Source: Guillardia theta CCMP2712 (lineage: Eukaryota; Protista; Cryptophyta). Taken from it: 64,000 nt of DNA. The notes below the pieces were generated by a model. It was not told where the DNA came from, did not search any database, and was given only the letters and a program-made list of their open reading frames with translations. Position 1 is the first letter of the stretch. The number at the start of each line of letters is the position of its first letter. Both the position numbers and the translations under genes were made by a program. Shown here one piece after another: positions 1-59,326 of the stretch. Where the stretch lies: assembly GCF_000315625.1 (NCBI RefSeq), contig NW_005434580.1:209648-273647 (forward strand), given 5' to 3'.

Positions 1-3000
1 ACGGGAGGGCTACAATTAGATCATTTGATATGTAATAATATATTATATGGTGGTGCCTCCCTAAATTTGAATAATCAAACAGTCAGCACAGAACAAAGCC
101 TATCAACAAATAATAATATACGACGGAGCTTAACCATTAACAATGAACCAGCCAAGACAGACATCAAAGATTTATTTGATTCAGCAGATAGACAAGGAAT
201 ACTAAAGATATATTTTGATGAAGCACAACAAAGATATGTTTCTACAATTGAAACGTTTCAGCTAAATTTTAAGAACACAAAAGACGGGGATGTTACCATA
301 ACTCTAAATAATTATAATAGTCAAGATATAACACTAAAAGATGGAATTCAAGGCCCTCAAGGCCCGCAAGGCCCGCAAGGAAGCACCGGACCACAGGGAA
401 GCACCGGACCACAGGGAAGCACCGGACCACAGGGAAGCACCGGACCAAAGGGTGATAGGGGCACGAACGCCGGTCAAATCATATTTAAAAATTATGATGG
501 AACGGTTGAATTAGCAAAAATCGGCGATTCTAATGTTTCAAGTGCCTCAATCAATATTCCAAAAGGAACAAATGCCGGAGAGTTGAAATTTTATAATGCT
601 GATGGGACTGAATTAATAGGAAAAATTGGAGATGCCAATGTTTCGAGTGCTTCAATTAATCTGCCAGCAGTTGGCCCAAGGGGTTACGCCGGTGTGAATG
701 CTGGACAGCTTAAATTTTATAATTCAGATGGCTCGACATTATTAGGTCAAATCGGAGATTCTAATGTATCATCTCAATCAATAAATTTATATAGTGCCGG
801 TGTGAATGCTGGAGAGCTCAAATTTTATAATTCAGATGGCAGTTTATTATTAGGTAAAATCGGAGACCCTAACGTTTCAACTGCTAATATAAATATACCA
901 GCAGGAGAACAAGGCCCTCAAGGCATTCAAGGCATTCAAGGCGTTCAAGGAATTCAAGGAATTCAAGGCGCAACAGGACCAGCCGGCACAAACTGCCCCG
1001 AGATTGTTTTATTAGACAGTCAAAATCATGAGCTTGTGAGATTTGGTGATTCAAGCGTTTCAACTCAAACTGTCATACTTCCAAAGCTATATGACGATAC
1101 AGACACAAGCAATTATCTATACACAAATGAATATATACAACGTCATGAGCTAGAAGATACAAGCAATCTATTATATGAAGATATAGAGCTATATAAATTT
1201 AAACCTATTGATTATCTTGTCAATGATGGAGGAGATATCTTCTTGTTCGATGAATACACAAACAAAACTTACAATACAACAAATTCAGAACTTCAATTGA
1301 CTAATTCAAATAAGTCTGTATCTCTAATATTTGAGGATAAGCAATATGATAATGTCTTGATTACTCCTGAACTTTATAACTTTCAGTACTCGGCCGCAGG
1401 CACAAGTACACTAACACCTACAATATCATATACAGGGCCTACGCCTGAGATAGCTTGGTATAAATTTAACGATGATTTAATAAATGATATAGATTCAATA
1501 ACAACCATAACAATAACAAATGGGGCTTATTCGTTCTCATCAATTACTAATAAACAAGGTAAGAGCTTATCACTAGATAGTAAAAATATAGATGGTTTAT
1601 CTTGGACACGGTGGAACAACGGATATGCTGTATATTCTGGCACTGTTAATTCAACTGGAACAGACACAAATATATCAAATGATTTCAATGTTACAGCTGA
1701 AGAAAATTTTGCAGTTGAATATGTAGGATATTTTTATACAAATTCCTACTCGGGAACTTTCACATTTTACACATCAAGTGATGATGAAAGCTACCTATGG
1801 ATTACATCCGGAGGTACAGAGACAATGGTAGTAAATAATAGTGGAAAGCATGCGACACAAGAAAGAAGCGGCACAATTACTCTAAATTCTTATACATATT
1901 ATCCTATACGTGTTCGTTTCAGTGAGGCAACAGGCGGCAATTCAATTACCGTCAATTTTGCCGCTTCTGGATTGACAAAGACAACAAACGGAAGCGGATT
2001 TTATTATAACAGAATAAACACAAATGTTTCAATACCAGACATCATATATAATGGGTTTCTTACTTTCGCTTTTTGGTTGTATGCTAGGAGTTCTAACAAT
2101 GAAACAATAATTAATTTAAGCGATGGTATAAATAACATAAAATTATATATAATTTCTGGTGTAGTATCTATAAGCATAAATGGCGTTAATGATACAGCAA
2201 CAGGTCAATCGATTGATTTAAATACATGGACACATTATAGCTTGACAATTGGAAATTCAATAAATCTATACAAAAATGGGAATAAATACACGTCTTCACT
2301 CACTAAACCGACCAACACAACATTTAACAAAAATAAATTAGGGTTAAATTCTGATGATTCAGGTTATACATTATTAGCAAATTATCAAGATTTAAGATTT
2401 TACAATAGAGAGCTTTTAGAAATCGATGTTAATTTGATAATTGGATATTCAGGACAAAGAGCCTTAACAGTTCAGAACTTTGCTAAGCCTTACACCAACG
2501 CGCAAATCGATGATAAGATTGATAATATTGTTATCCCAGCTGGCTATAGTGATACAGATGTACAAGCATATCTAACAGCCAATGATTATGTCACATTATC
2601 AGACATACCAGCTGGATATTCTGACACTGACACACAAGCATATTTAACTACAAATAATTATTTAACAAGTGGAACACAATTTATAAGAAGCGTTACAGGC
2701 AATCAATTAGCTTTATCTTTTACACCTTTTACATCAGCAAGTCAATATATACAATCGGTTAATTCATCTTACTTTAGCGTTACAGGCAATCAATTAAGTC
2801 TAAGCTTCACACCTTTAATATCATCAAGTCAATATATACAGTCGGTCAATTCCTCATTTACTGTTACAGGCAATCAATTGAGCTTATCATTTACACCATT
2901 TACATCAGCAAATCAATTTATCCAATCTGTCAATTCTTCTTTTACTGTTACAGGTAACCAATTAGCTTTATCATTTACACCATTTACAAGCTCAGACCAA

Positions 3001-3189
3001 TTTATAAAATCTGTCAATACAAATAATTTATCGGTAAACGCTAGCGGTCAGCTGGATATAATAGCTGTTCCATCAAATTTTATAAGTTCAGTGTCAAACG
3101 ATTTCAATGTATCTTCTGGATTATTAAGCCTAGCTAATAGCTATGTCCTTCAAAGCACTTTTAATGAACTTTTTGGTAGATTGACATGA
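1..3189 (+). CDS. Virus-like fibre/attachment protein (collagen + ~35-aa repeats + LamG with inserted PA14 + beta-spiral-like repeats); 5' end lies outside the window
   Basis: Frame is open from base 1 ([11 protein letters not shown]...), with no introns. AT-rich: 18/60 GC at 1081-1140 versus 38/60 at 3481-3540. G-X-Y runs at ~343-460 and ~904-985. Five GxNAG(E/Q)LKFYNxDG...IGDxNVS repeats at ~460-1083. PA14 motifs [41 protein letters not shown] at ~1594-2010. LamG motifs [38 protein letters not shown]-terminal [20 protein letters not shown] repeats at ~2690-3170. Confidence 0.75.
379..450 (+). repeat. In-frame 18-bp VNTR (GGAAGCACCGGACCACAG x4) in the collagen segment
   Basis: Four near-identical copies encoding GSTGPQ. 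Confidence 0.9.
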
Positions 3190-3269
3190 CAGGAATGACG
3201 GAGGTAATCAGTCATTCTCTTCATTCATTCTCAGATGCTCACGAGCTTCTTAATCCGATCATCATGACT

Positions 3270-6200
3270 TCAGAACTTGGTGCCATCCACACTCGGAACG
3301 TTCCTCTCAACTCCTCGCGTGTCCGGCCCGCTGTAAGTCAGAAGCTGGTACACCCCACCATTGCCCTGGTACCCGGTAAGCAGGACCTTGTGATCCCCAG
3401 CTGAAAGGGTGATGGAGCCGCAAACTTTCCTAGGGGGATGCTCGTAGTCGTTTTCTAAGATCGTCCTGCCGTCCACGTAGACGTAGGAGCCGTCGTCAGA
3501 GGTGGAGCAGAAGGAGTAGGAGCCCTCCTCCGTAACCCGCACCTTGCCGTACACCGCCCATGCGTAGTTGCCTTCAGGGCATGAGGGGATGATCCTGCGG
3601 AGGTCATTTAGGTCGCCGAAGTAGACGGTGGAGATGGTAGCCTTGTCAACAAATTGCAACGAGCTCATGTCGGGCACGCGAGAAAGATAGCTGGAGGCCT
3701 TGTACAGGTACATCGTCCACTTTGATGGGGGAGGGATGGCTGGGAGCGACTCTACGGGTGTGCTGACCATGCGCTGATCCAAGTTCCTTGTGTCTGGACC
3801 CGAGTAGGTGGCGACTTGGTAGGCTTCTCCGCTGCGAAGGAAGCCCTCGATGCGGATGGCAAAGCTGCCGACGGCAAGGCTGATGCTTCCGCACTTTCTC
3901 TGCACGTTGTGCGTGCCGTCATTGCTGGCGACGAGCTGGTTGTCGACGTAGAGGAAGGAGCCGTCCTCGGAGGTGGAGCAGAAGGTGTAGGAACCAGGCC
4001 CTTTGATATCCACCATCCCATAGAAGACCCACGCGAACTGCGAGGAAGGCGTGTCACCGACGATCTGCTTGAAGTCTTGTGTCCTGGTGAAGTACAGGTC
4101 TTGCACGCTGCCCTGCCCTACATAGGTGAGGTAACGCCAGTACGCGTCTGCCATGTTGTAGAGGTCTGCGCCTTTGAACACCCGCAGAGTCCACGAGGAG
4201 GCCGCTGGCTTTTGTGGAGCCCAGGCGGAGGAGCAAGTGAGGTAGCGCAAGACGTTGCCAGTGTCAGGCCCGGCGTACTGAGCGATGAGGGAGGCGTCGC
4301 CCTCGTACTTGAAGCCTGTCAGGAAGACCGTGTGCGATCCCTTGCTCAGCTCCAGCTCGCCGCACTCCTGCCGGGCCCCATGCGACCCGTCGTTGTCAAC
4401 CACCAGAACCTCCTTGACGTACAGGAGTGACCCCTCGTTGGACGTCACGCACATCCTGTATGTTCCTGCCGCCCCCACGCTGAGCTTACCATACACGGCC
4501 CACACGTAGTTGTACTCGGGCGTTGAGGGTACGATACTCTGAAATTCACTCCTGTCGTAGAAGTTGATGTACTCGCTGTTTCCTTGCCCCACAAACTGCA
4601 GCAGGCCCAATGCTGGCGTGTAGTCGAGCTTAGACACGTGGCTCTGGTAGATGCGGACGAGGAACGAGGAGGATGGCTTGTTAGGAAGGTTCGGCAAGTT
4701 GCCAGCAGAGGATCCCAGACTTTTGACGAGCAGCTCAGCTCCTCCTGTGTCAGGCCCACTGTATCTCAGCTCAGCATGCAGGCGGCCAGAGCCCACGAAG
4801 CCCTCGAGCGTCAGCTCGTGCGAGCCAGCGTCCAGCTGGGTAACAGCGCACTCGCGATGCTCCGTGTGCTCCCCGTTGTTCTCGACGAGCAGGCGGCCTG
4901 CCAGCAGGACGCGCGAGCCGTCGGAGGAGGTGGTACAGATCTGGTAGTCCCCAGCCTTCACCACCAGCAGTGAACCATAGAAGATCCAGAGGACGTTGTT
5001 TGTGGGCGTGTTGGGGATAAGGGATTGAAGCTCGCTCATGTCCTCCATGTCCACCTCTTCCAGTCCTGTCTGCTCACCTATCATCTTGACCATCGGGACA
5101 TCAGGGATTTGCTGCCAACAGCCGTCAGAAGTAGCGCCCCTCCCTCCTCCTTCCCTCTCTTTGTCCTGGAACCCCGCCCCCCCCCCATCCCCTTCCTCTC
5201 TTCGCCCTCTCTCTCTCCATCCTGTCCTCCCTGTCCTCCCTCTCACATGAAGAGCCTTGGGGGAGCTAAAGGTTCGAACTCCCCAGTCTGATTCCATCGG
5301 TTCTTTGGGCAGGTTTCCTGTCGCGTCTTCACTTCTCAAGAGCATGAAGTTCTCGCCAGTGTCATGACCCCTGCATCATCGATCAGCAGCTCGCACCAGC
5401 ACAAGGGCTGCCTCACTTCCAGAACGCATGCAGCACGAAGTTCCCTGTGCTCAAGAAGCCGCGGACCTCCACTGGCACCAGACCGTTCGAGACTTCGTAA
5501 GTACCGCACACGTGCTTTTCCTCGTGCCTCCCGTCGTTGTCCACCACCAAGTTACCGTCGATCCACAGCTGGGAGCTGACAGGCAAGTCAGCGAGGATCG
5601 TGAGGTTCGCAAGCACCTACCCGTCCGAAGAGGTTGTGCACCACTGGTACTCGCCTCCCCTCTGCACCAGGACGTTGCCGTAGAAGATGGCCATGAAGTT
5701 GGAGGAGGGAAGATGTTCGAAGTACTTGAGCTGATGTCAGCATCGCAGCAAGCATGTCAAGGATTCTAAGGACCTTGCGAAGTTCGCTGGTGCCCTGGAA
5801 GTTGATGTAGGGGATGGTAGTACTTCCAATATGGTATAGAGCCAGCAGGGAAGGCATGTATTGTAAGGTGTCGTCGGCTTCGTAGAAGCGGACAGTCCAG
5901 CTCGAGCGAGGCCTCTTGACAGCGCTGGTGATCTTAGAGAAGACAAGTCAGGCCGTTGGAGAACAGAGAGGGCGAGACGAACCAGCATCGACTTTGCGCG
6001 ATCCTTCCAGCCTTCCCAAGACAAGCAGTTGATGTCTCTAGGGCCTACGTAGGTGATCTTGTTGCCTTGGAAGTACTTGTCAGAGAACAGAGTGACCTGC
6101 AGGTGTGTTAGGCGAGAAGGTGGATGACAGCGGCGACCGAAAATTTCTCAGGGATGGAGAGGGAGGCAATTTCGTTGGGGTTCAGCTTGCACTCGTGCAA

Positions 6201-7858
6201 GCAGCACATCTCCTGATTGTCATCGCATTCCCCGTTGTCAAATCTCTCCCACTCCCCTTGACGCATGCTCTGAGACCAGGAAGGCTCTTCTTCGGGATCC
6301 AACGGATCCAAGCAGCTTCCTCTGACAACAACCTTGTCCTCCTTGTAGCTGCAGCAATGATTATCACCCTTTCCCTTGTTCTTGTCCCTCACCTCTCGAC
6401 GCATTTGTCGGGGATGTAGCATTCCTCTCGCAAGTGCCGGACAGTCTTGAAGATCGGCCTCACGTTCTTGCGCTCTCCCTGTACGAGTGTCAGCCCTGTG
6501 TCAAGCAGGTCATCGTTACCAGTTGGTCGTTATTCAGTCCCCAGCAGCACACGCCGACATCGTCTGAATGCGTACACTCCTCGCCTCCACATGACTTTGG
6601 ACAGTCGCCGATGTCCAGCTCTGATCCGGCGCCTGCAAGAACGTGAGCAGCAGAGACAACCTTGCTAGGCGATACAAGCAACGTGGGAGAGCCATATGGG
6701 TCCTTGTCCTCCTCCCTTCTTGATGGCCTTTCCTCCTTCCTCAAACCCAAGGCTACGACACACCACTTGGGCCGACAGCTGCGTGAAGCCGTACAGGCAG
6801 ACGGTTCCCCAAACCTGGGCAGGAGAGCGTCAGACGCTAGCGGGAACGAGGGGTCAACTCACTCCGTTGTAGTGCGTCTCGAGTCGACAAGAGCTGAAGT
6901 CACAGTCCACCAGCCTCGTCCATGCGTCGCCCCCCCCCGGGCAGAAGTACCGCCCGGGGGTCCAGCCGTCATCTGCCGGGGCTTCGCCAGCGAGTGAGTG
7001 CGGGCGCGAGGCAAGGACGGGTTGCTCACCAGAGCCCTGCAGCCCGTCAGCCCCAGAGGGGCCCGAGATGCCGTTCGGGCCGATCAAGCCCTCTTGTCCT
7101 CGGTCACCTTGGCCATGGTCAGGGGGAGCTGGGAGTCTTGCCGTCTTGTTACCGTCAAGACCCATCGGCCCTTGCTCTCCGGGCCCTCCCATGACCCCCG
7201 GAGGTCCCTGGATGCCCCGCGGTCCTTGCGGACCGCTTGCTCCGTCAAGTCCGTTCAGGCCAGGGTTACCATTCATTCCTGGTAGAGATTAGCTGGGGTT
7301 AGACCAGCGGTGGTACGGCCTCCTTACCTGGTAGGCCGGGTGGTCCACTAGGAAGTGAAGTCATTCAACAAGAAGAGGCCGCGCAGGGTGACTTACGGGA
7401 GCCCTTGGATCTCGTGATATTGTGCCTTGATGTCATCAGATTCCTTGGTGTTGAACTCTACAACCTCCCTCTTGACATCTGAGACCGTGGAGGCGACGTA
7501 CTCTTTCAGCCCTTTCTCCGCAGCGTCGAGATTCTCCGACATCTTCAGCGACTTTGTCAAGGCTGACTTCAACCTGACAGACGCGCCTGAGCTCATCGAA
7601 ACATTCTGCTCTTTCATTCTCTCACCTCTTCATCCTGCGTTTCGATTGACTCTCCTCTTGCATGAACGCCTTCGGAATCACAGGCGACTGGTCAGCGTCG
7701 GAGATTCCTGCGAACGTGTTCTGCATGTCCCCTGACATCCCGTTGCTGATCCCCAGCAACTCGAATGCCTTCTTCGAACCAGTCGCCGCCATGAGCACCA
7801 GCCCGGCGAGGACGAGCATCCCGATGGCTGCGACGGCTCGCTGCCGTCCAAACGCCAT
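3270..7858 (-). CDS. Multi-exon scavenger-receptor/collectin-like protein: signal anchor/peptide, coiled coil, collagen, SRCR, beta/gamma-crystallin, 5x PA14
   Basis: ATG 7858 MAFGRQRAVAAIGMLVLAGLVLMAATG (hydrophobic). Helical segment 7400-7617 and G-X-Y repeats ~7030-7350. Spliced SRCR RLETHYNG|VWGTVC..AQVVCRSLGF..GQGPIWLSHVAC|..GSELDIGDC..CTHSDDVGVCC (~6540-6920). Crystallin-like NPNEIASLSIPEKFS|VTLFSDKYFQG..GWKDRAKSM (~5983-6185). Five PA14 units with YG..GxYxxCxTSxxGSxxx(V/I)DG..NDGxH motifs (~3280-5940). Stop at 3270. Confidence 0.85.
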
Positions 7859-15353: not shown

Positions 15354-15489
15354 NNNNNNNNNNNNNNNNNNNNNNNNNNNNNNNNNNNNNNNNNNNNNNN
15401 NNNNNNNNNNNNNNNNNNNNNNNNNNNNNNNNNNNNNNNNNNNNNNNNNNNNNNNNNNNNNNNNNNNNNNNCATCATCATCATCATATA

Positions 15490-23621: not shown

Positions 23622-24743
23622 TGCGGCCACTCACTCAATTCATCCCCCTCTTCACCCCCCTCATGCCCGGGCCCCGCAGCTCCGGGACCCCGGCCCGGCC
23701 CCGGCCCAGGTCAGACAGGGCCCGGGCCGGCCGGGCCCGGCGGCCCGGTACTCCTTTACCATCTATTACTACAGCCACTGACGGATTTAGGCCACCAAGA
23801 TGGGAGGGCTCACTTGTGGCTGACTGAGAGGCCACGGGTCATCATGTGGGGGGGTGATTTTTGCACAAGATGATAGGTAGGGGTTATTACCCCTACCCTC
23901 AAAAGGTAGAATTCTGGTTGCTCCACCCCACCTTTGCATCATAAGAAGGGGTACTATAGATCAGTGAACTCTTAAGTGAGAGCATAGGAAAATTGACGAT
24001 AGGGTGGACCATGCAAACAGCGAGCGGAGTACCATGCGATCCTCCCGCCATGCCATGTTCCTGATGAAACGATTTACATCTCCTTACCCCTTCCACTCTC
24101 CTGCTTCCTCTGTCTCTGTCTCTGTCTCTGTCTCTGTCTCTGTCTCTGTCTCTGCCTACCTCCCCCTTTCTCCCTCCACATCCTCGACCTCCGTCTTACT
24201 CATGGCTCTCCTTACCTGCGGCAGTGCCCTCCTTCTCAATCACGGGTCGAACTTCATCCCTTTCCCGCTCCGGTCTCATGGTGCTGCTTCAACCTCTACA
24301 CTTCCCTTAACATATTGTCATATTTGTTTCGCATCATGCTCCCCATTCCCGTCTCCCATCCTCTTCAGATAATGCTCCTGCTCCATAGCTCTCATCCTCC
24401 CGCTTCTTGCCTCTTACGAGTCTGTTTCGCCGTTCTGTTGTTGACATCTGGATGTTTTTTTCTTCAACCCCCCCCGCCTCGATGATTACTTCAACAATTT
24501 CACACACTTTAATTGAGCCTTTTCTCATACTAGCATTTTCAATGGCTCAAACTTGTGCGGTGATCGTGACTTCCTGACATGTTGTTCCTGTACAGATCTC
24601 ATACTCGTACTTTCTGAAGTCATACAGATCAAACCTGATCTCATCTTGATCTCGATGCCGATGGTCACCCTTCACTCGAAACGTCTCCATGGGTCAACAT
24701 AGAAAGCTGACGCGCATTTCTTCACCTGCGATCGGATGGCGCG

Positions 24744-26075
24744 ATGGAGGTTATGAACTCGCCTTGCAAGGCTTCAACAGGGTTGAGGCCCCGTGCAGCT
24801 TGCGTACCTGGTGACTCGTATTCAAGTTCAGCTAGCACTGTCTGTGCGGCCCATAAGGAGATCTTCTATTCGAGCAATCCCACTGGAACGCTTCACTCAG
24901 GGGAGAGGTCTGATTACCCTCTAGATGTACATCTTCAAGGCGCCAGTGCTGCGGAACAAAACTTCTGCGTAAGACCAGAATGCAGGAAAGATCCCTTGGA
25001 ATCATGCAACCCTGGCGTGATGGAAGACGGCGCCTCCAACAAGTGCAAAAGTCTCATTCATGACACATCGGGCATGCTGCCTCCTTGCACTAGGAGTGAG
25101 ATTTATGATGCGTTCAGGAAGCACCAGGGGTTGGACGGAAAGGTCAGCCCTTGCCGACTTCTCAAGATCTCGGCCGAGGTTGGCCTGGATCAGCGGAGAG
25201 TTCTCCGTCTGCTATGCAAGGAATGGTCAATGGACTTGGAGACCTTCATGATGGTGCTTCAAGATGGAGAGGAGCAGGGAGAAATGAACGGGAGCAGGTT
25301 GAAGGATACTGCAAGCGATGAGCTTCAAGGGATACTGTACTCGCCGATTGACAGAAAGCAGCTCCGAAAGACCTTGCAGCACTGCAGAGTGGAATACCAG
25401 GAAGCTCTCGCCAACATGAAGGAGAGTGATGCACATCTCATTGCCATGCGCATGCTCCCGAGCATCGTCGATGATATCATGCTGCTGCGAGAGGAGGTTG
25501 GAGTCTATCCGGGTGTGAAGAAGGGCTTTGAACAAGCTTGCACACGCAGCGATGTTGTTGGAAATAGCACAGAATCTCCTCGGGGTAACAATCTGCAGGA
25601 GCATGAAGAGCCAGGAAGGGGAAGCATGGATGAGTTTCAAAGCGAGGGTCAGGTATCAAGGCACAACGGGCTGCCCACGACTCCGACCAGCCCCGGCGAT
25701 GCGGATGAGTCGATGGAGCACGGCTCGTCGTCCAGCGATGACAGTGAGGCGGACATGTCAGGGATCGACTTCTCCCGGAGAGAATCGTCCTTCAGTCATG
25801 GCTTCACTGACTACGACCAGGAGGAGGTGGGTTGTAGCTCCGACGGCAAGCAGGTCGGCAGACTGACCGTGGCTCTGCTCTGCGTCGCTGATACAGTAAG
25901 GACTTACAGGGCCCAGAGGCGTCGGATGAGACGAGGATGCTTCTTGGTGAGTTTCTCAGGCTTCCAGTGACTGGAGAACTGAGCTTCCCTTTGCGCAGAT
26001 CAAATCAAGAGAGAGGCGGAAGAAAGTCTGCGAGCCTACAGGGCAGCCATCGCACGGACATCACAAGGAATCTGA
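24744..26075 (+). CDS. Hypothetical protein with a degenerate EF-hand-like segment and an acidic disordered tail (copy A, the most complete copy of a tandem array)
   Basis: 408-aa ORF plus a small 3' exon after a GTGAGT..GCAG intron. EIYDAFRKHQGLDGKVSPCRL...MDLETFMMVL resembles an EF-hand pair. Confidence 0.6.
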
Positions 26076-26895
26076 CATGAGTCAAGTTGGAATGGATCGG
26101 CCGACCAGCGCACCCGTGCCAGCAGCGCATTGTGATCCTTTGGGCCGCCGAGGCTCCAACTCACTCTGACCGACCCGGCGTCCGACCCGGCGCTCGCGGC
26201 AGTCGGAGGGCTGATGAAGTATGCGTTCTGAGGGTGGCTGGTATAAAGCGGTAGTTCCATATCCTCCGAAAGTACTTCGAAATCATCTTACTACTTTCAA
26301 ATGGTAACAATGGAGTTTTGTATAAACAAATCGGACTCCGAGGCGGACGGTAAACGGGACTGGCGGGCTCGCCTCAGAGCGTTGGACAAAAATACTGATT
26401 CCCGCGGCCCGTCACCTCAGGATGGAGGAGCTAGAGGAGGGTCCATGATCACTCTGGTATCTATTTAGACCCCCTCCCTCTCGCTGATGTTTCATCCGTT
26501 GATATCACTCGAGCTCACCCACTGTAGAGGAAAGTGGTTAAGAAGCTCCGTACTCATGTCTTTGAAAACCTGAAGATACCCTACTTTTCTTCCTCGTGAA
26601 ACCTTTAGAAATCTGAGCATGTAGGGATTGGCCATGGTTTCATCTGGGTCATTACAGATGCAGGTTCGTTGAGTCGATGGACTGCAAACTGAGAGGGGAC
26701 AGGATGGTCCATTGAGCGATTGGGTCGAATGGCTTACAATGACGAAGAAACATGTGAGTTGATCATGTGGAAGAAGAGAATGGGACGTTTGCAGGGGATT
26801 TTCTCGCCAGGTGGACATCTCAGTCTTGAGCGAGGGATGTTCGGAGAACCAAGCCGCGAGGAAAGGAAGCCATCACCGCATCGTGACTTGCTGAT

Positions 26896-27882
26896 ATGTT
26901 ATTCCTGTGTCTCATTCATGACACATCGGGCATGCTGTTTGAGGGAAAGGTCAGCCCTTGCCGACTTCTCAAGATCTCGGCCGAGGTTGGCCTGGATCAG
27001 CGGAGAGTTCTCCGTCTGCTATGCAAGGAATGGTCAATGGACTTGGAGACCTTCATGGTGGTGCTTCAAGATGGAGAGGAGCAGGGAGAAATGAACGGGA
27101 GCAGGTTGAAGGATACTGCAAGCGATGAGCTTCAAGGGATACTGTACTCGCCGATTGACAGAAAGCAGCTCCGAAAGACCTTGCAGCACTGCAGAGTGTC
27201 ATACCAGGAAGCTCTCGCCAACATGAAGGAGAGTGATGCACATCTCATTGCCATGCGCATGCTCCCGAGCATCGTCGATGATATCATGCTGCTGCGAGAG
27301 GAGGTTGGAGTCTATCCGGGTGTGAAGAAGGGCTTTCAACAAGCTTGCACACGCAGCGATGTTGTTGGAAATAGCACAGAATCTCCTCGGGGTAACAATC
27401 TGCAGGAGCATGAAGAGCCAGGAAGGGGAAGCATGGATGAGTTTCAAAGCGAGGGTCAGGTATCAAGGCACAACGGGCTGCCCACGACTCCGACCAGCCC
27501 CGGCGATGCGGATGAGTCGATGGAGCACGGCTCGTCGTCCAGCGATGACAGTGAGGCGGACATGTCAGGGATCGACTTCTCCCGGAGAGAATCGTCCTTC
27601 AGTCATGGCTTCACTGACTACGACCAGGAGGAGGTGGGTTGTAGCTCCGACGGCAAGCAGGTCGGCAGACTGACCGTGGCTCTGCTCTGCGTCGCTGATA
27701 CAGTAAGGACTTACAGGGCCCAGAGGCGTCGGATGAGACGAGGATGCTTCTTGGTGAGTTTCTCAGGCTTCCAGTGACTGGAGAACTGAGCTTCCCTTTG
27801 CGCAGATCAAATCAAGAGAGAGGCGGAAGAAAGTCTGCGAGCCTACAGGGCAGCCATCGCACGGACATCACAAGGAATCTGA
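26896..27882 (+). pseudogene. 5'-truncated copy B of the tandem gene
   Basis: Lacks the 24744-25050 N-terminus and the ~25080-25136 segment of copy A; otherwise nearly identical. Confidence 0.6.
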
Positions 27883-39040: not shown

Positions 39041-42000
39041 CTAACTGTTAACAGTATACCGGACCCACCTACTGTTCAGCACATAGTCAGCACGAGCTTG
39101 GGCTGCGCCTTCTCCTTCCAACTGCGGACACGTAAGACAATTAGGGCAGCAACAGCCACAGGGGCAAAATAGCAAGGAATACTTGATGAAGATCTGTTGT
39201 ATGATGTACTTCTCGCTCTTCCCCTGTAGATGTAGAATTCTAAGACAAGCCAAGCAGTGTAAGTTTGAAGAAAAATGGCCCTGAGTTGTTTCTTACCCTT
39301 TCGTGATCACCGTCAATCTGATGACATATCGACTCCACCCTTTGGTACGAATCAGATAAGACAAGACAAGACAAGACAAGACAAGACAAGACAAGGTTGA
39401 TTACCTAGGTATGCTTCCTCCATCAATGTTCTCCCCGACTTTGACGTCCAGAAATGACTCAAGTTTTCCTTGTTCAGAAGCAGTGCCTCCTCCTTGTCGA
39501 GTTCCTGCCGAATCTCCCAAGATCACAGTCTCATCGTTCAGTTCACAATGACTTACCTGCATTGACTCCAAACCTGAGGGACCGGATGGGATGGAGACGA
39601 AGACGTCCCGAATCGAGATATCTGACTTGGCACTGCAGCACCAATGGTTCCGTTTGGTCTTGAAGAATTTCTTGTTGGACAGTTGGAAGCAGTCTGACTT
39701 CAATGCAAGAATGCTGTCGAACTGCTGCAAGCTATGAGCACATTCTACCTGGCAATCCAAGACCAAATGCATCCTGGCATTCCCTGGAAATGAGATCCGA
39801 TCGATCTCAACGGAGAAGATCTTGGCCAAATCCAAGAGCACTCGGCCTCTGATTTCTTGCATGTCGAACGACGAGGGTTTGGCTAGATCAAAGAAAATAG
39901 AGAAAGTAGCGGAGTCCACGGCCAGACTTGTAGCTCCGCCTGATTCCCAGGCCTCCCACACGCTTTCATGTCTGAGTTGTGAAATGACGGATGTAAAATG
40001 AGACCACCGATCAAAACACTGCCGCTCCAGCGGAGACACCCACCGCCCGATCACCATCATCAAAACAGAGTTGCGGTATCGTAAATACGATATGACGTCA
40101 AAAAAGTGGTCGAAGGCCGCCGCCAGCTTCGTGTGTAGCATGCGGTCGATCACCCGCCTGCATAGATCCCTCCGGTCCTTGCACTGCCTGACCCGCTCTA
40201 CGAAGGAGTCGAACGCCGTCGCCAGCTGGATGTGGAACATCCGTAGCACCACCCGCCGGCTGATCTCGGTACGGCGGTCCTGCTCTCTCCTCACATAGTC
40301 TTGGTTCAGGCTGACCTCGTTGCGTAGTGAAAGTAACTGCTCGTGAAGCCTTTCCTGCGCCTCTTCCTTCTCGCAAGCTCGCATATACTCTACGTAGTCC
40401 AGCCAGCGGTCGAAGCACTGCCGCTCCAGCGGAGACACCCACCGCCCGATCACGTTCGCAATCACCTTCTTTTGAGCTTGAGACTTGTCAATCATCTCCC
40501 TGAAGCGGTCGAAGGCCGCCGCCAGCTTTGTGTGTAGCATGCGGTCGATCACCCGCCTGCATAGATCCCTCCGGTCCTTGCACTGCCTGACCCGCTCTAC
40601 GAAGGAGTCAAACGCCGTCGCCAGCTGGATGTGGAACATCCGTAGCACCACCCGCCGGCTGATCTCGGTACGGCGGTCCTGCTCTCTCCTGACGTAGTCT
40701 TGGTTCAGGCTGACCTCGTTGCGTAGTGAAAGTAACTGCTCGTGAAGCCTTTCCTGCGCCTCTTCCTTCTCGCAAGCTCGCATATACTCTACGTAGTCCA
40801 GCCAGCGGTCGAAGCACTGCCGCTCCAGCGGAGACACCCACCGCCCGATCACGTTCGCAATCACCTTCTTTTGAGCTTGAGACTTGTCAATCATCTCCCT
40901 GAAGCGGTCGAAGGCCGCCGCCAGCTTGGTGTGTAGCATGCGGTCGATCACCCGCCTGCATAGATCCCTCCGGTCCTTGCACTGCCTGACCCGCTCTACG
41001 AACGATTGAAACGCAGTTGACAGTTGCAGGTTCATCATTCGATGCAAGATCTTTTTAACGGAATCCATCTTGCTTGCTTGTATGCGTGAGATAGATTCTT
41101 CAAAATGTTCCTTCATGCTTTGAATTGTTTGTTTCAATTGATCAGTGGCGTCTTCATGTCTTGATCGCTTGGAAAGTTCTTTGTATTCTATCCAGCGGTC
41201 GAAGCACTGCCGCTCGAGTGGGGTCAACCAATGAGAAAGTGCTGAATGCAAAGCATTTCGTTGATATGCACAATTTTGACAGCCTTCAACAAAGTGGTCA
41301 AAGGCCGCCGCCAGCTTCGTGTGTAGCATGCGGTCGATCACCCGCCTGCATAGATCCCTCCGGTCCTTGCACTGCCTGACCCGCTCTGCGAAGGAGTCGA
41401 ACGCCGTCGCCAGCTGGATGTGGAACATCCGTAGCACCACCCGCCGGCTGATCTCTGTCCTTCGCTGAATCTCAGAATCTAACGCATCTTTACGTGTGGA
41501 TACTTCCAAAGCGAAATCATTTTGAATTTTGCTTTGCGCCTCTTCCTTCTCGCAAGCTCGCATATACTCTACGTAGTCCAGCCAGCGGTCGAAGCACTGC
41601 CGCTCCAGCGGAGACACCCACCGCCCGATCACGTTCGCAATTACCGTCCTCTTTGCTCTCAGACCTTTCGTGGCCTCGACAAACCGATCGAAGGCCGCCG
41701 CCAGCTTCGTGTGTAGCATGCGGTCGATCACCCGCCTGCATAGATCCCTCCGGTCCTTACACTGCCTGACCCGCTCTACGAAGGAGTCGAACGCCGTCGC
41801 CAGCTGGATGTGGAACATCCGTAGCACCACCCGCCGGCTGATCTCGGTACGGCGGTCCTGCTCTCTCCTCACATATCTTTACGTGTGGATACTTCCAAAG
41901 CGAAATCATTTTGAATTTTGCTTTGCGCCTCTTCCTTCTCGCAAGCTCGCATATACTCTACGTAGTCCAGCCAGCGGTCGAAGCACTGCCGCTCCAGCGG

Positions 42001-45000
42001 AGACACCCACCGCCCGATCACGTTCGCAATCACCTTCTTTTGAGCTTGAGACTTGTCAATCATCTCCCTGAAGCGGTCGAAGGCCGCCGCCAGCTTCGTG
42101 TGTAGCATGCGGTCGATCACCCGCCTGCATAGATCCCTCCGGTCCTTGCACTGCCTGACCCGCTCTACGAAGGAGTCGAACGCCGTCGCCAGCTGGATGT
42201 GGAACATCCGTAGCACCACCCGCCGGCTGATCTCGGTACGGCGGTCCTGCTCTCTCCTGACGTAGTCTTGGTTCAGGCTGACCTCGAGCTCGAGCTCTTT
42301 TTTCAGCCTTTCCTGCGCCTCTTCCTTCTCGCAAGCTTGCATATACTCTACGTAGTCCAGCCAGCGGTCGAAGCACTGCCGCTCCAGCGGAGACACCCAC
42401 CGCCCGATCACGTTCGCAATCACCTTCTTTTGAGCTTGAGACTTGTCAATCATCTCCCTGAAGCGGTCGAAGGCCGCCGCCAGCTTTGTGTGTAGCATGC
42501 GGTCGATCACCCGCCTGCATAGATCCCTCCGGTCCTTGCACTGCCTGACCCGCTCTACGAAGGAGTCGAACGCCGTCGCCAGCTGGATGTGGAACATCCG
42601 TAGCACCACCCGCCGGCTGATCTCGGTACGGCGGTCCTGCTCTCTCCTGACGTAGTCTTGGTTCAGGCTGACCTCGTTGCGTAGTGAAAGTAACTGCTCG
42701 TGAAGCCTTTCCTGCGCCTCTTCCTTCTCGCAAGCTCGCATATACTCTACGTAGTCCAGCCAGCGGTCGAAGCACTGCCGCTCCAGCGGAGACACCCACC
42801 GCCCGATCACGTTCGCAATCACCTTCTTTTGAGCTTGAGACTTGTCAATCATCTCCCTGAAGCGGTCGAAGGCCGCCGCCAGCTTGGTGTGTAGCATGCG
42901 GTCGATCACCCGCCTGCATAGATCCCTCCGGTCCTTGCACTGCCTGACCCGCTCTACGAACGATTGAAACGCAGTTGACAGTTGCAGGTTCATCATTCGA
43001 TGCAAGATCTTTTTAACGGAATCCATCTTGCTTGCTTGTATGCGTGAGATAGATTCTTCAAAATGTTCCTTCATGCTTTGAATTGTTTGTTTCAATTGAT
43101 CAGTGGCGTCTTCATGTCTTGATCGCTTGGAAAGTTCTTTGTATTCTATCCAGCGGTCGAAGCACTGCCGCTCCAGCGGAGACACCCACCGCCCGATCAC
43201 GTTCGCAATTACCGTCCTATGCACAATTTTGACAGCCTTCAACAAAGTGGTCAAAGGCCGCCGCCAGCTTCGTGTGTAGCATGCGGTCGATCACCCGCCT
43301 GCATAGATCCCTCCGGTCCTTGCACTGCCTGACCCGCTCTACGAAGGAGTCGAACGCCGTCGCCAGCTGGATGTGGAACATCCGTAGCACCACCCGCCGG
43401 CTGATCTCGGTACGGCGGTCCTGCTCTCTCCTGACGTAGTCTTGGTTCAGGCTGACCTCGAGCTCGAGCTCTTTTTTCAGCCTTTCCTGCGCCTCTTCCT
43501 TCTCGCAAGCTCGCATATACTCTACGTAGTCCAGCCAGCGGTCGAAGCACTGCCGCTCCAGCGGAGACACCCACCGCCCGATCACGTTCGCAATCACCTT
43601 CTTTTGAGCTTGAGACTTGTCAATCATCTCCCTGAAGCGGTCGAAGGCCGCCGCCAGCTTGGTGTGTAGCATGCGGTCGATCACCCGCCTGCATAGATCC
43701 CTCCGGTCCTTGCACTGCCTGACCCGCTCTACGAAGGAGTCGAACGCCGTCGCCAGCTGGATGTGCAGCATTCTTTTGATCATTTTCTGACTCACATTTA
43801 CAAGACGATTGTGTATCCATTCTGATTTGCTGGAGAAATGATTGATGTCAGACTTCAGCTGTGATTCTTTGTCTTCCAAAATCTTTGACTCAGCCTCTGT
43901 GTGCCACGATAACAACAGCCTTCTCATTGAATTGCCTTCTTTCTTCTTCTGAATTTTGTGCTCGATTGTCTTGAGGGATACCTTTTGCAATTTAAAGGAT
44001 TTCCATGCCCAGAGGGAGGATCGGATCATTCTTCTCAAATATACTATGTAGTACTTGATATCTCGTGATCTCCAGCTGCGAAGTGCTTTTGTATTGACTC
44101 TCCATCGACCGAAGAAGATGCTGATTGTCAAACAACCTCTCAATATTCTTTTGAGTAGCTTTAGCTGCAGAGACTTGCGATGCACATCTTCGAGTTTGCT
44201 CACGACCACTTTGAAAGCCGATGCCAATCTGCATCGCTGCGATCGTGATTCAATCAAATTTGCCTTGACATCCAGCATCCGCTCTTGAAGAATTACACCT
44301 TGCAACGTTCAAATTCATCATCTCAGCTTGACACTCTTTTTAATATCACCTGACCACTTTTTGAAGGTCGTCACAAGCCTTCCGAATTCACAAGATTTTT
44401 TTTTTGTATCAGCAAGTCGCCTGCTTCTCTGATTGCTTTTAAAGAATTCGTTGGAGATGACGTGTTGCGACGATTCTTTTGTCAAGCTCTGCCTTCTTTT
44501 GAGCGCATTTCTTTGAAAAAAGATTAGAAATTTAAATAGATAGGGGATAACAAAGTTCACCGAATCATAGTTTGGCGGTATTCTTCTAAACTCCGCTTTG
44601 CCTCTTCCAATTCTTGTTGCAAGCAATGATGCTTCGCAAGAAATGATTTTCTTTCATTCTCATAGGTCTTGAGTGTGGCTTCATTCAATGTCAATTTTCG
44701 TCTGAGTATAATTTGTTCGGTCTCAAGAATTTCCAACAATTTTTGCTGATCTGCAAATTATTGTGAGCACTAGAAATTTTTCAATTATGCACAATGAACC
44801 GTCTCCATTCTGTAGCTCTGACTTGATTTCCTTTGAACCGTTGCTAATTCGGCCTTGTTCTAACACCTTTGAACATTTGTCAACAATACCATCCAACCCA
44901 TATCGAAATTGTACTTGTTGCGTTGTCCTGAGCCTTTCTATCTGCAAGAATAATTCAACAACAGTGCAAAGTAAATCAATCTAGTTCCCTACTTCTTGCA

Positions 45001-55293: not shown

Positions 55294-55971
55294 CTAAACC
55301 TCGTCCTCGTCCGTCGCCCTCATGTACTCCGCAAGCCACTCTGCCTCTATTCCCCCCGTCGTCCCCTCCTCTCCCCGCTCCTCCATCCGCCAGGCTCCTC
55401 CTGTCCCTCCCCATGCGCGAGCGCCGGAGGTCTGAGCAGCGGGCAGAAAGGCTGAGGGCTGGGCTTGGGGTCGTCCGGGCGGCGGGCCAACAAGCTCGGA
55501 GGGTCTGACTTGGACCGTATGAGCGACGGCAGCTGCAGCTGATTGGGATGAAGGCGAAGACGCCGAGGAGGACGAGGGAGGGCTGTCCTCGGAGTCCTGC
55601 TCCTCCTCTCCCTCTCCGTGATGCGACCCCTCCTCCTCCCCTCCTCCCCCGCCTTGGCCCCCCGCCTCTCCTTCCCCCTGCCCTCCCCGCCAGCGAGCGA
55701 TGCCGAGCCTCCTGCAGGCAGTCTTGAGGCTGGTGAGGGAGATGCCCTGGCAGGAGGAGGAAGCGCAGTCAGCATCGGGCAGTGAGGGAAGGAGGAGGGG
55801 CAGGGGAGATCTTACGAGGCGCTTGGCGGCGTCTCGCTGCTTGAGGGGGAAGAGTGGCTGGAGGATGGCAGGGGAGATGCGGAGGAGAGGAGGGGGTGGT
55901 GAGGATCGGTCAGGGGGGTTCTTTCGGGGTCGAGGAATGACGTAGACGGAGGGGGAGGAGGGGCGCTGCAT
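55294..55971 (-). CDS. RWP-RK domain transcription factor (2 exons; RWR variant)
   Basis: Exon 55971-55816 ..ILQPLFPLKQRDAAKRL and exon 55746-55294 GISLTSLKTACRRLGIARWR..WLAEYMRATDEDEV*. Confidence 0.85.
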   Translation of the reverse strand: MQRPSSPSVYVIPRPRKNPPDRSSPPPPLLRISPAILQPLFPLKQRDAAKRLVRSPLPLLLPSLPDADCASSSCQGISLTSLKTACRRLGIARWRGGQGEGEAGGQGGGGGEEEGSHHGEGEEEQDSEDSPPSSSSASSPSSQSAAAAVAHTVQVRPSELVGPPPGRPQAQPSAFLPAAQTSGARAWGGTGGAWRMEERGEEGTTGGIEAEWLAEYMRATDEDEV

Positions 55972-56175
55972 GTCAGGAGCAGAGGGAGGAGGGGCGAGAT
56001 GAAGGGGATGGGAGTGGAAGAAGAGTGTTGGAGCCTGGAAGCGAGAAAGGTTGTCAGGAAAACTTACAAGAATCAAACAGCCGTATGCTTTAGCTCAGCT
56101 GTATCATCAAGTTCTTGACGTCTCTATCATATTTGGTTTCCTGATGGTCTGGTATAAACGTTCTTCTGGTTTCTT

Positions 56176-58203: not shown

Positions 58204-58880
58204 TTACACCTCGTCCTCGTCCGTCGCCCTCATGTACTCCGCAAGCCACTCTGCCTCTATTCCCCCCGTCGTCCCCTCCTCTCCCCGCTCCACCATCCGC
58301 CAGGCTCCTCCTGTCCCTCCCCATGCCCGAGCGCCGGAGGTCTGAGCAGCGGGATCAGCTGATTGGGATGAAGGCGATGACGCCGAGGAGGACGAGGGAG
58401 GGCTGTCCTCGGAGTCCTGCTCCTCCTCTCCCTCTCCGTGATCCGACCCCTCCTCCTCCCCTCCTCCCCCGCCTTGCCCCCCCGCCTCTCCTCCCCCCTG
58501 CCCTCCCCGCCAGCGAGCGATGCCGAGCCTCCTGCAGGCAGTCTTGAGGCTGGTGAGGGAGATGCCCTGGCAGGAGGAGGAAGCGCAGTCAGCATCGGGC
58601 AGTAGGGAGGAGGAGAAGGAAGCGGTAGAGTCGGTAGAGTCGGTAGACGCAAGGGGGGGAAGTAAAGACTCACAAGGCGCTTGGCGGCGTCGCGCTGCTT
58701 GAGCGGGAAGAGTGGCTGGAGGATGGCAGGGGAGATGCGGAGGAGAGGATGTATAGAGGACAAGGGGCTTTGGGGGTTGCGACGAGGTCGGGGGACAACG
58801 TACACGGAGGGGGAGGAGGCCTGTATGTTAGGAGCAGAGGGAGGAGGGGCAAGATTTTGGTTAGGGAGATTGGCTGCCAT
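58204..58880 (-). CDS. RWP-RK domain transcription factor (2 exons; RWR variant)
   Basis: Exon 58880-58674 (69 codons) and exon 58566-58204 (121 codons) are in frame and carry the same motifs as the 55294 copy. Confidence 0.85.
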
Positions 58881-59326
58881 AACGAAAAGCACTGGAGCTG
58901 CAAGCAAAGGTCATCGTCAGGCGAGGAGTTTGTGCGCATCTTTTCTAGCTTCTCTTTACAGTCTGCACAATTGTGCGTTTGTCTGTTGTTTGCATGTTTG
59001 AATATGTTTCTCAGCTCCCTTGCTCATCCTTGACTATCTCACACGTGCTGCCAGCACCCTACTCTCATCATCTATCACTTCCTGTTGCTCTTTTTGTTTG
59101 TCGTCACCTGCCTCCCTTTCTCGTCTCTCCGTTCCTTTTCTTCTCAAGAGCCCCAACCCATCAACCCCGGGTAGTTGCATCGGTGTTCTGCAAGCTTTAT
59201 CTCTTCTTGCGAAAAGAAGCGGTTTCAATATTTTTGGAGTTGCCAACGTGACCTGCTGACAGTTTGGCCCATGTTAGTTGCCGACTCTCAAGTTTTTAGT
59301 TATCGATTCGCAGGAGCCCCGTCCTT

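What the first reader, a model, noticed from the sequence alone, without database searches (positions are those of the whole stretch)
1..3190. Endogenous virus remnant encoding a modular collagen/PA14/LamG fibre protein
Seen: an intronless ORF of >1060 aa at roughly half the host GC, open off the left edge. It has two collagen runs, a lectin-like head and C-terminal shaft-like repeats. Known: collagen, LamG and PA14 domains and beta-spiral shafts occur in receptor-binding fibres of dsDNA viruses, and AT-rich Polinton-like viruses/virophages integrate in protist genomes. Inference: this is the attachment-fibre gene of an integrated virus whose core genes lie to the left.
Basis: partly seen in the sequence, partly recalled or inferred. 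Interest (0 to 1): 0.8.

Follow-up and report, generated by a model that had tools for sequence, protein, structure and literature searches.

The report
Cut-off virus fibre gene in alga
An AT-rich, intron-free gene with collagen, repeat and sugar-binding domains is joined directly to the chromosome of a single-celled alga; it is likely the cell-attachment fibre gene of an integrated Polinton-like virus, cut short at its end, a kind of gene already described in these algae.

Summary
Observation mostly confirmed: a stop-free 1062-codon frame (1-3189, open left) with two collagen runs, PA14, LamG and three repeat types; GC is 0.35 against 0.54, not half. A read-derived contig bridges the junction to the host gene at host depth with no differences, so it is not a chimera. 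New here: about three sister copies share the ends of the gene, differ mostly at synonymous sites (16 of 18 listed), lack this PA14/LamG centre at 90% likeness, and part from this copy at 3169 or 3176; one goes on in frame. This copy therefore stops abruptly, with no terminal repeat and no S74 chaperone. Closest relatives are a Hanusia phi model and 2.3-2.9-kaa S74-tipped fibres on 16-17-kb contigs. Cryptophyte Polinton-like-virus fibres of this build are published (PMC12220804); its table gives LamG in 3 of 3 Guillardia elements. Core viral genes to the left could not be tested; a beta-spiral shaft is not shown. The scan noted a collagen-LamG fibre before in another genome (e1-9927141). Bold reading (10%): the 7-nt-apart break points mark a tyrosine-recombinase site inside the fibre gene.

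The parts
1..3189 (+). Fibre-like open frame, 1062 aa, open at left; GC 0.347, GC3 0.23
343..468 (+). Collagen run 1 (aa 115-156, 14 G-X-X triplets)
   Evidence: Pfam PF01391 E 3.1e-8
466..903 (+). Four 35-42-aa repeats of no known family; a degenerate fifth at 988-1050
   Evidence: (D1, D6); no relative
904..993 (+). Collagen run 2 (aa 302-331, 10 triplets)
1606..2016 (+). PA14/GLEYA lectin-type domain with the Asp-Asp pair at aa 594-595; likely inserted after the first strands of the LamG domain
   Evidence: Pfam; model pLDDT mostly above 90 over this part; fold matches Flo/Epa/MpPA14 lectins; same order in P0186
2023..2424 (+). Laminin_G_3 (concanavalin-A-like) domain, aa 675-808
   Evidence: PF13385 E 3.8e-12, above cut-off
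1520..2383 (+). Centre private to this copy: no sister or environmental relative at 90% likeness
   Evidence: X1 depth 83-86 here against 104-1035 elsewhere in the frame; X6 0-0.9 here; X1 loose end at 2383
2533..2661 (+). Two 24-aa repeats shared with Hanusia P0125, P0126 and the S74-tipped fibres P0274/P0275; predicted trimer contacts
2689..3132 (+). Five 28-aa beta-rich repeats (shaft-like by pattern; fold not shown)
   Evidence: (D3); not confident
3170..3176 (.). Interval in which the three copies part: one leaves at 3169, one at 3176
   Evidence: tables 2, 7, 8
3177..3206 (.). Single-copy junction DNA; supplies the last four codons and the stop; no terminal repeat
   Evidence: X1 depth 66.3 from one contig; X6 host allele matches only from 3207
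3270..7858 (-). Convergent host gene: intron-rich, N-terminal hydrophobic segment, collagen, SRCR and at least four PA14 repeats; its stop is 80 nt from the fibre stop. Left and right limits read by eye
   Evidence: its PA14 repeats are not the source of the fibre PA14

Best explanation
This is an AT-rich, intron-free collagen/PA14/LamG gene joined to an algal chromosome, likely the attachment-fibre gene of an endogenous Polinton-like virus (PLV) whose right end was cut off at about 3176. Shown: domains, repeats, the junction, sister copies, their synonymous divergence, and the abrupt end. Inferred: in the ancestral virus the protein was a trimer held by the collagen and 24-aa repeats, displayed on the capsid, with the PA14 (calcium-dependent, by its Asp-Asp pair) and LamG domains binding glycans on the host cell; sister viruses kept the stalk and exchanged or rapidly changed the lectin centre. 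Inferred: a circular PLV genome integrated, and a later deletion or imprecise joining removed what lay right of 3176 (in long relatives, further modules and an S74 chaperone), leaving a locus-made stop 13 nt on. Untested: that capsid, ATPase and recombinase genes lie to the left. The copy is young or was active until recently, since 1062 codons carry no stop or shift.
For: Junction: an 8003-nt contig of run X1 covers 3140 to beyond 6500 with 0 differences at depth 66.3, 37 letters left of 3176; the private centre has depth 83, so the gene is at about host copy number. Sister copies: contigs at depth 84.5 and 82.4 share 3121/3140-3169 and then differ; the 84.5 one runs on 255 or more letters in frame and is also in X3 and X6. 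16 of 18 listed variants in the frame are synonymous against 0.22 expected, p 4e-9. The 24-aa repeat is in P0274/P0275 (2865 and 2279 aa; E 2e-7, 5e-7), which end in Peptidase_S74 and carry Gly_rich_2 and PTR and whose cluster members lie on contigs up to 16-17 kb, PLV size. Closest named relative is a Hanusia phi (cryptophyte) model with the same linker and a Gly_rich_2 domain. PMC12220804 section 13: cryptophyte PLV fibres above 1000 aa with collagen, LamG and S74 are common; Table S6: Guillardia PLVs have LamG 3 of 3, S74 1 of 3, tyrosine recombinase 3 of 3; GC gaps of 14-28 points are typical, here 19. Trimer of aa 845-1058: score 0.37, best of 3 controls 0.00; that mark was reached by 21 of 30 proteins solved as pairs of one chain and 0 of 23 single chains; runs agree in at least 54% of contacts, pLDDT 46-47. 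The analogous Gezel-14T fibre was found in virions (10.1101/2022.07.28.501842).
Against: No PLV core gene was seen: nothing left of the window could be read. The contigs of P0274/P0275 could not be fetched, so that they are PLVs rests on size and S74. The link to them is one short repeat. Collagen, PA14 and LamG also occur in phages, giant viruses and cellular proteins; the nearest PA14 domains sit in unlabelled proteins, some with membrane and coiled-coil segments. No terminal repeat at the right end. Only 1 of 6 runs laid bridges the junction, and that run may be the window's source. Contig depth is a rough guide to copy number. The 18 variants are the best-supported rows of 165; 125 rows were not shown. 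The trimer pass is weak, unlike the calibration (three copies), and does not cover the 28-aa repeats.
Confidence: 0.6

Rival explanations
1. The DNA is PLV-derived but only a scrap: a few kb of fibre gene captured as filler at a chromosome break, with no core genes to the left.
For: Abrupt right end, no terminal repeat, up to 30 nt of unassigned junction DNA containing a 7-nt inverted repeat (3193-3199 with 3211-3217, read); an earlier unchecked note reports cut-off virus gene pieces as filler elsewhere in this assembly; two of five published Guillardia elements are partial.
Against: The frame is intact over 3.2 kb and contigs run over the left edge in X1, X2 and X6 or the right edge (one search counts both together), with sister-shared sequence at position 1-54; nothing shows a left end.
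Confidence: 0.15
2. The right end is a true recombinase attachment end: the element's tyrosine recombinase cuts inside the 3' part of the fibre gene, so integration itself shortens the fibre and excision would restore it.
For: Two copies leave the shared sequence 7 nt apart (3169, 3176), the length of the lambda and CTnDOT overlap regions (PMC8371274, PMC2817482); Guillardia PLVs carry tyrosine recombinases near their ends and lack rve; att sites inside viral genes are known in archaea; S74 in only 1 of 3 elements.
Against: One sister copy is unbroken here at about one copy per genome in two studies (X1, X3); the other leaver goes on into AT-rich letters in a 55-nt contig, which looks viral rather than host; only two break points, and matches at a junction can be chance; most published YREC PLVs of cryptophytes have terminal inverted repeats; att sites are expected beside the recombinase gene.
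Confidence: 0.1
3. The gene comes from a giant virus or mirusvirus, not a PLV.
For: Earlier unchecked notes report mirusvirus pieces in this assembly; PA14 proteins occur in Bathycoccus virus and Yasminevirus; the one IMG/VR locus fetched with the PA14 part has large-virus-like gene content by eye (L001); the PA14 clade includes long membrane/coiled-coil proteins that I recall as giant-virus-like (not tested).
Against: About three diverged copies per genome match the published PLV count and LamG content; the stalk repeats point to S74 fibres on 16-17-kb contigs; PA14 is the mobile part of the gene.
Confidence: 0.1
4. The shortened gene has been kept by the host as an adhesin or decoy receptor.
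For: Intact frame; it faces a host collagen/SRCR/PA14 gene.
Against: GC3 0.23 against host 0.74, no introns; the junction and the private centre are not seen in the environmental host population X6; its PA14 is unrelated to the neighbour's.
Confidence: 0.03
5. Assembly chimera with bacterial or phage contaminant DNA.
For: Collagen hits are mostly phage tail fibres; runs X2, X3 and X6 do not bridge the junction.
Against: X1 contig bridges it with 0 differences at host depth; sister copies are in runs of 2011, 2021 and 2023; closest named relative is in another cryptophyte; none of 174 candidate stretches in GTDB genomes and no phage record is related.
Confidence: 0.02

Closest known systems
Modular fibre proteins of cryptophyte Polinton-like viruses (Bulzu et al. 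2025, PMC12220804, section 13 and Table S6)
   Same: Above 1000 aa, collagen runs, Laminin_G_3, tandem repeats, AT-rich against a GC-rich cryptophyte host, several copies per genome.
   Different: PA14/GLEYA is not named in that paper's text or two supplements; collagen and LamG are described there in different host species; this copy has no S74 chaperone and no terminal repeat behind it.
Guillardia theta PLV elements (Yutin et al. 2015, PMC4642659; three complete and two partial per PMC12220804)
   Same: Likely the same host; about three sister copies; LamG in 3 of 3 and S74 in 1 of 3 elements.
   Different: Could not match this locus to a named element: no coordinates or sequences found in the supplements searched. 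It may already be catalogued.
Metagenomic S74-tipped fibres P0274/P0275 and Hanusia phi model P0125
   Same: 24-aa stalk repeat (45-65% identical); P0125 also shares the LamG-end linker and last 28-aa unit.
   Different: They carry Gly_rich_2 (and PTR, S74) where this one has PA14/LamG; genomic context not seen.
Ltf fibre of Gezel-14T/PgVV (10.1101/2022.07.28.501842)
   Same: Longest ORF of a PLV, repeat-rich, virion-associated, proposed to attach to the host.
   Different: T4 gp36-like repeats; no sequence comparison made here.
PA14 lectins Flo/Epa adhesins and Marinomonas MpPA14 (PDB 4gq7, 2xju, 4af9, 6xa5)
   Same: Fold of the middle domain and the Asp-Asp pair; that this pair binds calcium and sugar is recalled.
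   Different: 13-18% identity; cellular adhesins; sugar specificity here unknown.

Membership tests
Polinton-like virus (endogenous) | Double-jelly-roll major capsid protein gene | not testable with these tools
   Would lie left of the window; no genome held, no linked contig fetched.
Polinton-like virus (endogenous) | Minor capsid (penton) and A32 packaging ATPase genes | not testable with these tools
   Same reason.
Polinton-like virus (endogenous) | Integrase (rve or tyrosine recombinase) and replication gene | not testable with these tools
   Same reason; published Guillardia elements have tyrosine recombinase and primase-helicase.
Polinton-like virus (endogenous) | Terminal inverted repeat at the element end | tested here: not met
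   At most 30 nt lie between sister-shared DNA (3176) and host-matching DNA (3207) and they are single-copy in X1. Hence filed as a broken end or fragment, not an intact element.
Polinton-like virus (endogenous) | Target-site duplication | not testable with these tools
   Needs the left end; not expected for tyrosine recombinases.
Polinton-like virus (endogenous) | Integrated in the host chromosome, with GC offset | tested here: met
   Bridging contig; 19-point GC gap within the 14-28 range of PMC12220804.
Polinton-like virus (endogenous) | Related copies elsewhere in the genome | tested here: met
   Two further continuations at about single-copy depth in X1; one also in X3 and X6.
PLV fibre proteins | Long modular protein with collagen and/or LamG and tandem repeats | tested here: met
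PLV fibre proteins | C-terminal Peptidase_S74 chaperone (frequent, not universal) | tested here: not met
   No PF13884; present in relatives P0274/P0275; 1 of 3 Guillardia elements.
PLV fibre proteins | Homotrimer | tested here: inconclusive
   Score 0.37, best control 0.00, mark reached by 21 of 30 solved pairs and 0 of 23 single chains; pLDDT 46-47; collagen runs imply a trimer by established knowledge.
Triple beta-spiral shaft (adenovirus/reovirus type) | Sequence or structure match to solved beta-spiral repeats | tested here: inconclusive
   No PF06536 or solved relative; model not confident over aa 896-1027. Resemblance is recalled only.
PA14/GLEYA lectin domain | Pfam above cut-off, fold, Asp-Asp pair | tested here: met
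Laminin_G_3 | Pfam PF13385 above cut-off | tested here: met
   this part of the model was low-confidence.

The most novel reading that the evidence does not exclude
The virus's tyrosine-recombinase attachment site lies inside the 3' end of its fibre gene: integration clips off the fibre's tip module and gives each provirus a host-made stop, and excision to a circle rebuilds the full fibre, an integration-coupled switch for virion assembly in a eukaryotic virus. Alongside it, the lectin centre (PA14-in-LamG) is a cassette swapped among resident proviruses.
Probability: 0.1. Interest if true: 0.75.

Novelty: new member of a known kind. Interest (0 to 1): 0.3.

Why it matters
As it stands it is one more PLV-type fibre gene in a cryptophyte, possibly in an element catalogued in 2015. 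Its modest value: a PA14 lectin in such a fibre was not found in the papers searched and gives a testable receptor-binding domain for a virus group whose receptors are unknown; and reads show shared stalk, private lectin centre and clustered break points among resident copies. If the break points are a recombinase site, it would give the first mapped att site of an integrated cryptophyte PLV known to me and a simple off-switch for proviral virion assembly.

Tried and rejected
No whole genome held. Whole-protein homologue search was swamped by collagen: 1146 hits among 7985 scored, none of the 120 listed covering more than 25%. The 35-42-aa repeats: none among 5459 candidates, none in IMG/VR. 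IMG/VR scans (8 of 8 used): one PA14-only locus; none for the C-terminus (12), linker alignment (54), P0274 (63) or P0124 (83); one search reported 2 relatives of the N-terminus but returned 0 loci, and a shifted query found none. JGI metagenome scans: 0 exact DNA matches; none of 322 candidates related. GTDB: none of 174. Phage records: no match. ESM Atlas: best scores 0.82 and 0.84, leads only. Single-sequence fold useless, pLDDT 35. Expression: no RNA holder listed; RNA run X11, about 6 in 100 read, laid 15 reads on 6.5 kb, 14 of them only 90-95% alike and the host gene uncovered too, so uninformative. Capture of the fibre PA14 from the neighbouring host gene rejected: 29-38% identity over short stretches; in a tree of 50 rows (45 best hits of 150, 4 host repeats, the query) the host repeats form their own branch, 100/100. 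Supplement searches for PA14 or for peptides of this frame: nothing in PMC12220804, PMC4642659, PMC9356565; figures are not held and preprint supplements are closed, so a published gene map of this element may exist unseen. No earlier scan note near this place or by sequence.

Full report
Observation. The window opens inside a + strand frame that runs to a stop at 3187-3189: 1062 codons, no stop, no start in view. At its base make-up such a frame has a chance of about 1e-35. GC is 0.347 against 0.541 for the rest of the window; no other 1-kb stretch of the window falls below 0.388; third-position GC is 0.23 against 0.74 in the adjacent host frame. So the contrast is real but is 64% of host GC, not half.

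Anatomy. From the left: 113 aa of no known family; collagen (aa 115-156); four 35-42-aa repeats and a degenerate fifth; collagen (aa 302-331); about 150 aa unassigned; PA14/GLEYA (Pfam aa 565-653); Laminin_G_3 (aa 675-808); two 24-aa repeats; five 28-aa repeats. LamG appeared only when scanned alone. With a 41-row alignment the PA14 part folds at pLDDT mostly above 90 and matches Flo/Epa adhesin and Marinomonas PA14 lectins in the PDB and PA14 proteins of phages and algal viruses in BFVD; the LamG part of that model is poor. The Asp-Asp pair at aa 594-595 is conserved in the alignment; its role in calcium and sugar binding is recalled. P0186 has the same order, including the strands before PA14, so PA14 is likely inserted into the LamG fold. 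Three copies of aa 845-1058 scored 0.37 against a best control of 0.00; that mark was reached by 21 of 30 proteins solved as pairs of one chain and 0 of 23 single chains, the runs agree in at least 54% of contacts, and pLDDT is 46-47. The confident contacts are in the 24-aa repeats and the last 30 residues, not in the main 28-aa repeats, so a beta-spiral shaft is not shown.

Host side. The neighbour on the minus strand ends at 3270, 80 nt from the fibre stop. It has short introns, collagen, SRCR and at least four PA14 repeats. The shared domain types are a coincidence of kind: the fibre PA14 groups elsewhere. The host looks like a cryptophyte; the closest named relative of the fibre is a Hanusia phi model, and an earlier unchecked note names this assembly Guillardia theta. 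I did not test the species.

Is it integrated? Of 24 runs listed I laid six. In X1 an 8003-nt contig covers 3140 to beyond 6500 with no difference, at depth 66.3; 37 of its letters lie left of 3176. The private centre of the gene lies on a 1617-nt contig, identical, at depth 83.2. X2, X3 and X6 do not bridge; X1 may be the window's own source, but its contig is built from reads at full depth. A chimera is unlikely.

Sister copies. Summed X1 depth is 83-86 over 1520-2387 and 104-1035 over most of the rest of the frame (69 in one bin); environmental run X6, which holds a host about 97% identical at depth 6-9, has 70-440 over most of the two ends, 0 at 1086-1302 and 0-0.9 over the centre (90% likeness). 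A sister sequence rejoins at 2383, and P0125 and P0126 also begin to align at aa 796, though that is also the best-conserved LamG strand. Of the 18 variants listed inside the frame (best-supported rows; 125 of 165 rows not shown) 16 are synonymous, against 0.22 expected: the copies diverged as working genes. Near the end, three X1 contigs of depth 66.3, 82.4 and 84.5 share sequence to 3169; one leaves there and meets an in-frame stop two codons on; one leaves at 3176 and goes on for 255 or more letters, in frame over the 30 letters shown, and is present in X3 and, with third-position changes, in X6. After 3176 depth falls to the single host-level contig. X6's host allele matches from 3207 rightwards and differs in the 15 letters it has to the left. 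So no more than 30 nt separate shared viral DNA from host DNA, there is no terminal repeat, and the last four codons and stop of this copy are private to the locus. Depth is a rough measure, but about three copies is the simplest reading.

Relatives. A full HMMER search with aa 331-1062 gave 1661 hits at E 0.001, nearly all through PA14; only P0125 and P0126 among the 150 listed share the stalk repeats. A search of longer proteins with aa 800-1062 gave 2 hits among 5154 candidates: P0274 and P0275, with Gly_rich_2, PTR and C-terminal Peptidase_S74, cluster members on contigs up to 17.3 kb. Their contigs could not be fetched.

Literature seen. PMC12220804 (abstract, passages, section 10, first part of section 13, supplement rows): cryptophyte PLVs commonly encode fibres above 1000 aa with collagen, LamG and S74; Guillardia has three complete and two partial elements; Table S6 gives, for three elements, MCP, mCP, ATPase, primase-helicase, tyrosine recombinase and LamG in 3 of 3, S74 in 1 of 3, no pPolB or rve. 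PMC4642659 (passages, section 5, supplement searches): three Guillardia elements with recombinase genes near their ends. 10.1101/2022.07.28.501842 (passages): the Gezel-14T fibre is in virions. PMC9356565, 10.64898/2026.10.13.758929, PMC2817482 and PMC8371274: passages only. PA14 in a PLV fibre: not in the three PLV or giant-virus papers among 6 listed, in none of the 20 listed of 664, nor in the supplements; this is a weak negative, since Table S6 lists chosen families only and figures are not held.

Mechanism and verdict. Best reading (0.6): fibre gene at the broken right edge of an endogenous PLV; trimeric stalk and glycan-binding centre are inferred, core genes to the left untested. Rivals: isolated PLV scrap used as repair filler (0.15), recombinase site inside the fibre gene (0.1), giant-virus or mirusvirus origin (0.1), host co-option (0.03), chimera (0.02). 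The recombinase reading rests on two break points 7 nt apart, the size of known overlap regions, and is weakened by the unbroken sister copy at about one per genome. It works like a PLV fibre; it is not filed as an intact PLV because the terminal repeat test failed and the core genes were not seen. New member of a known kind, possibly already catalogued; interest 0.3.

Noticed in passing
window 3270-7858 (-): Host gene with hydrophobic N-terminus, collagen, SRCR and tandem PA14 repeats, a scavenger-receptor-like lectin; it faces a viral gene built of the same domain types, and the insertion lies in or next to its 3' untranslated region.
   Followed up: partly
run X6, window 3095-3176 and 2822-3038: In a freshwater metagenome with the host at depth 6-9, single contigs related to the fibre end reach depth 81, suggesting many copies or free virus; this copy's lectin centre and junction are not seen there.
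   Followed up: partly
P0138: The PA14 domain closest to the fibre's (64% over 105 aa) is in a protein with Ephrin_rec_like repeats that looks eukaryotic, hinting at domain exchange between protists and their viruses; support for the pairing is 93/78, direction unknown.
   Followed up: partly
window 3186-3217: Junction DNA has a 7-nt inverted repeat (3193-3199 with 3211-3217) and short direct repeats, as can arise in templated end-joining; not tested against chance.
   Followed up: no
window 55294-56094 and 58204-58910 (-): Two near-duplicate RWP-RK transcription-factor genes in tandem.
   Followed up: partly
window 24711-25970 and 26887-27777 (+): Tandem duplicate of a long exon with near-identical protein, no Pfam hit in the first.
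   Followed up: no
window 39401-44308 (-): Long frame of about 120-aa near-identical repeats split over three reading frames, AT-rich at its 5' part (GC 0.39 at 43.7-45.2 kb); frameshifts may be assembly errors in the repeat.
   Followed up: no
window 15354-15471: Scaffold gap of 118 N inside a simple-repeat tract.
   Followed up: no
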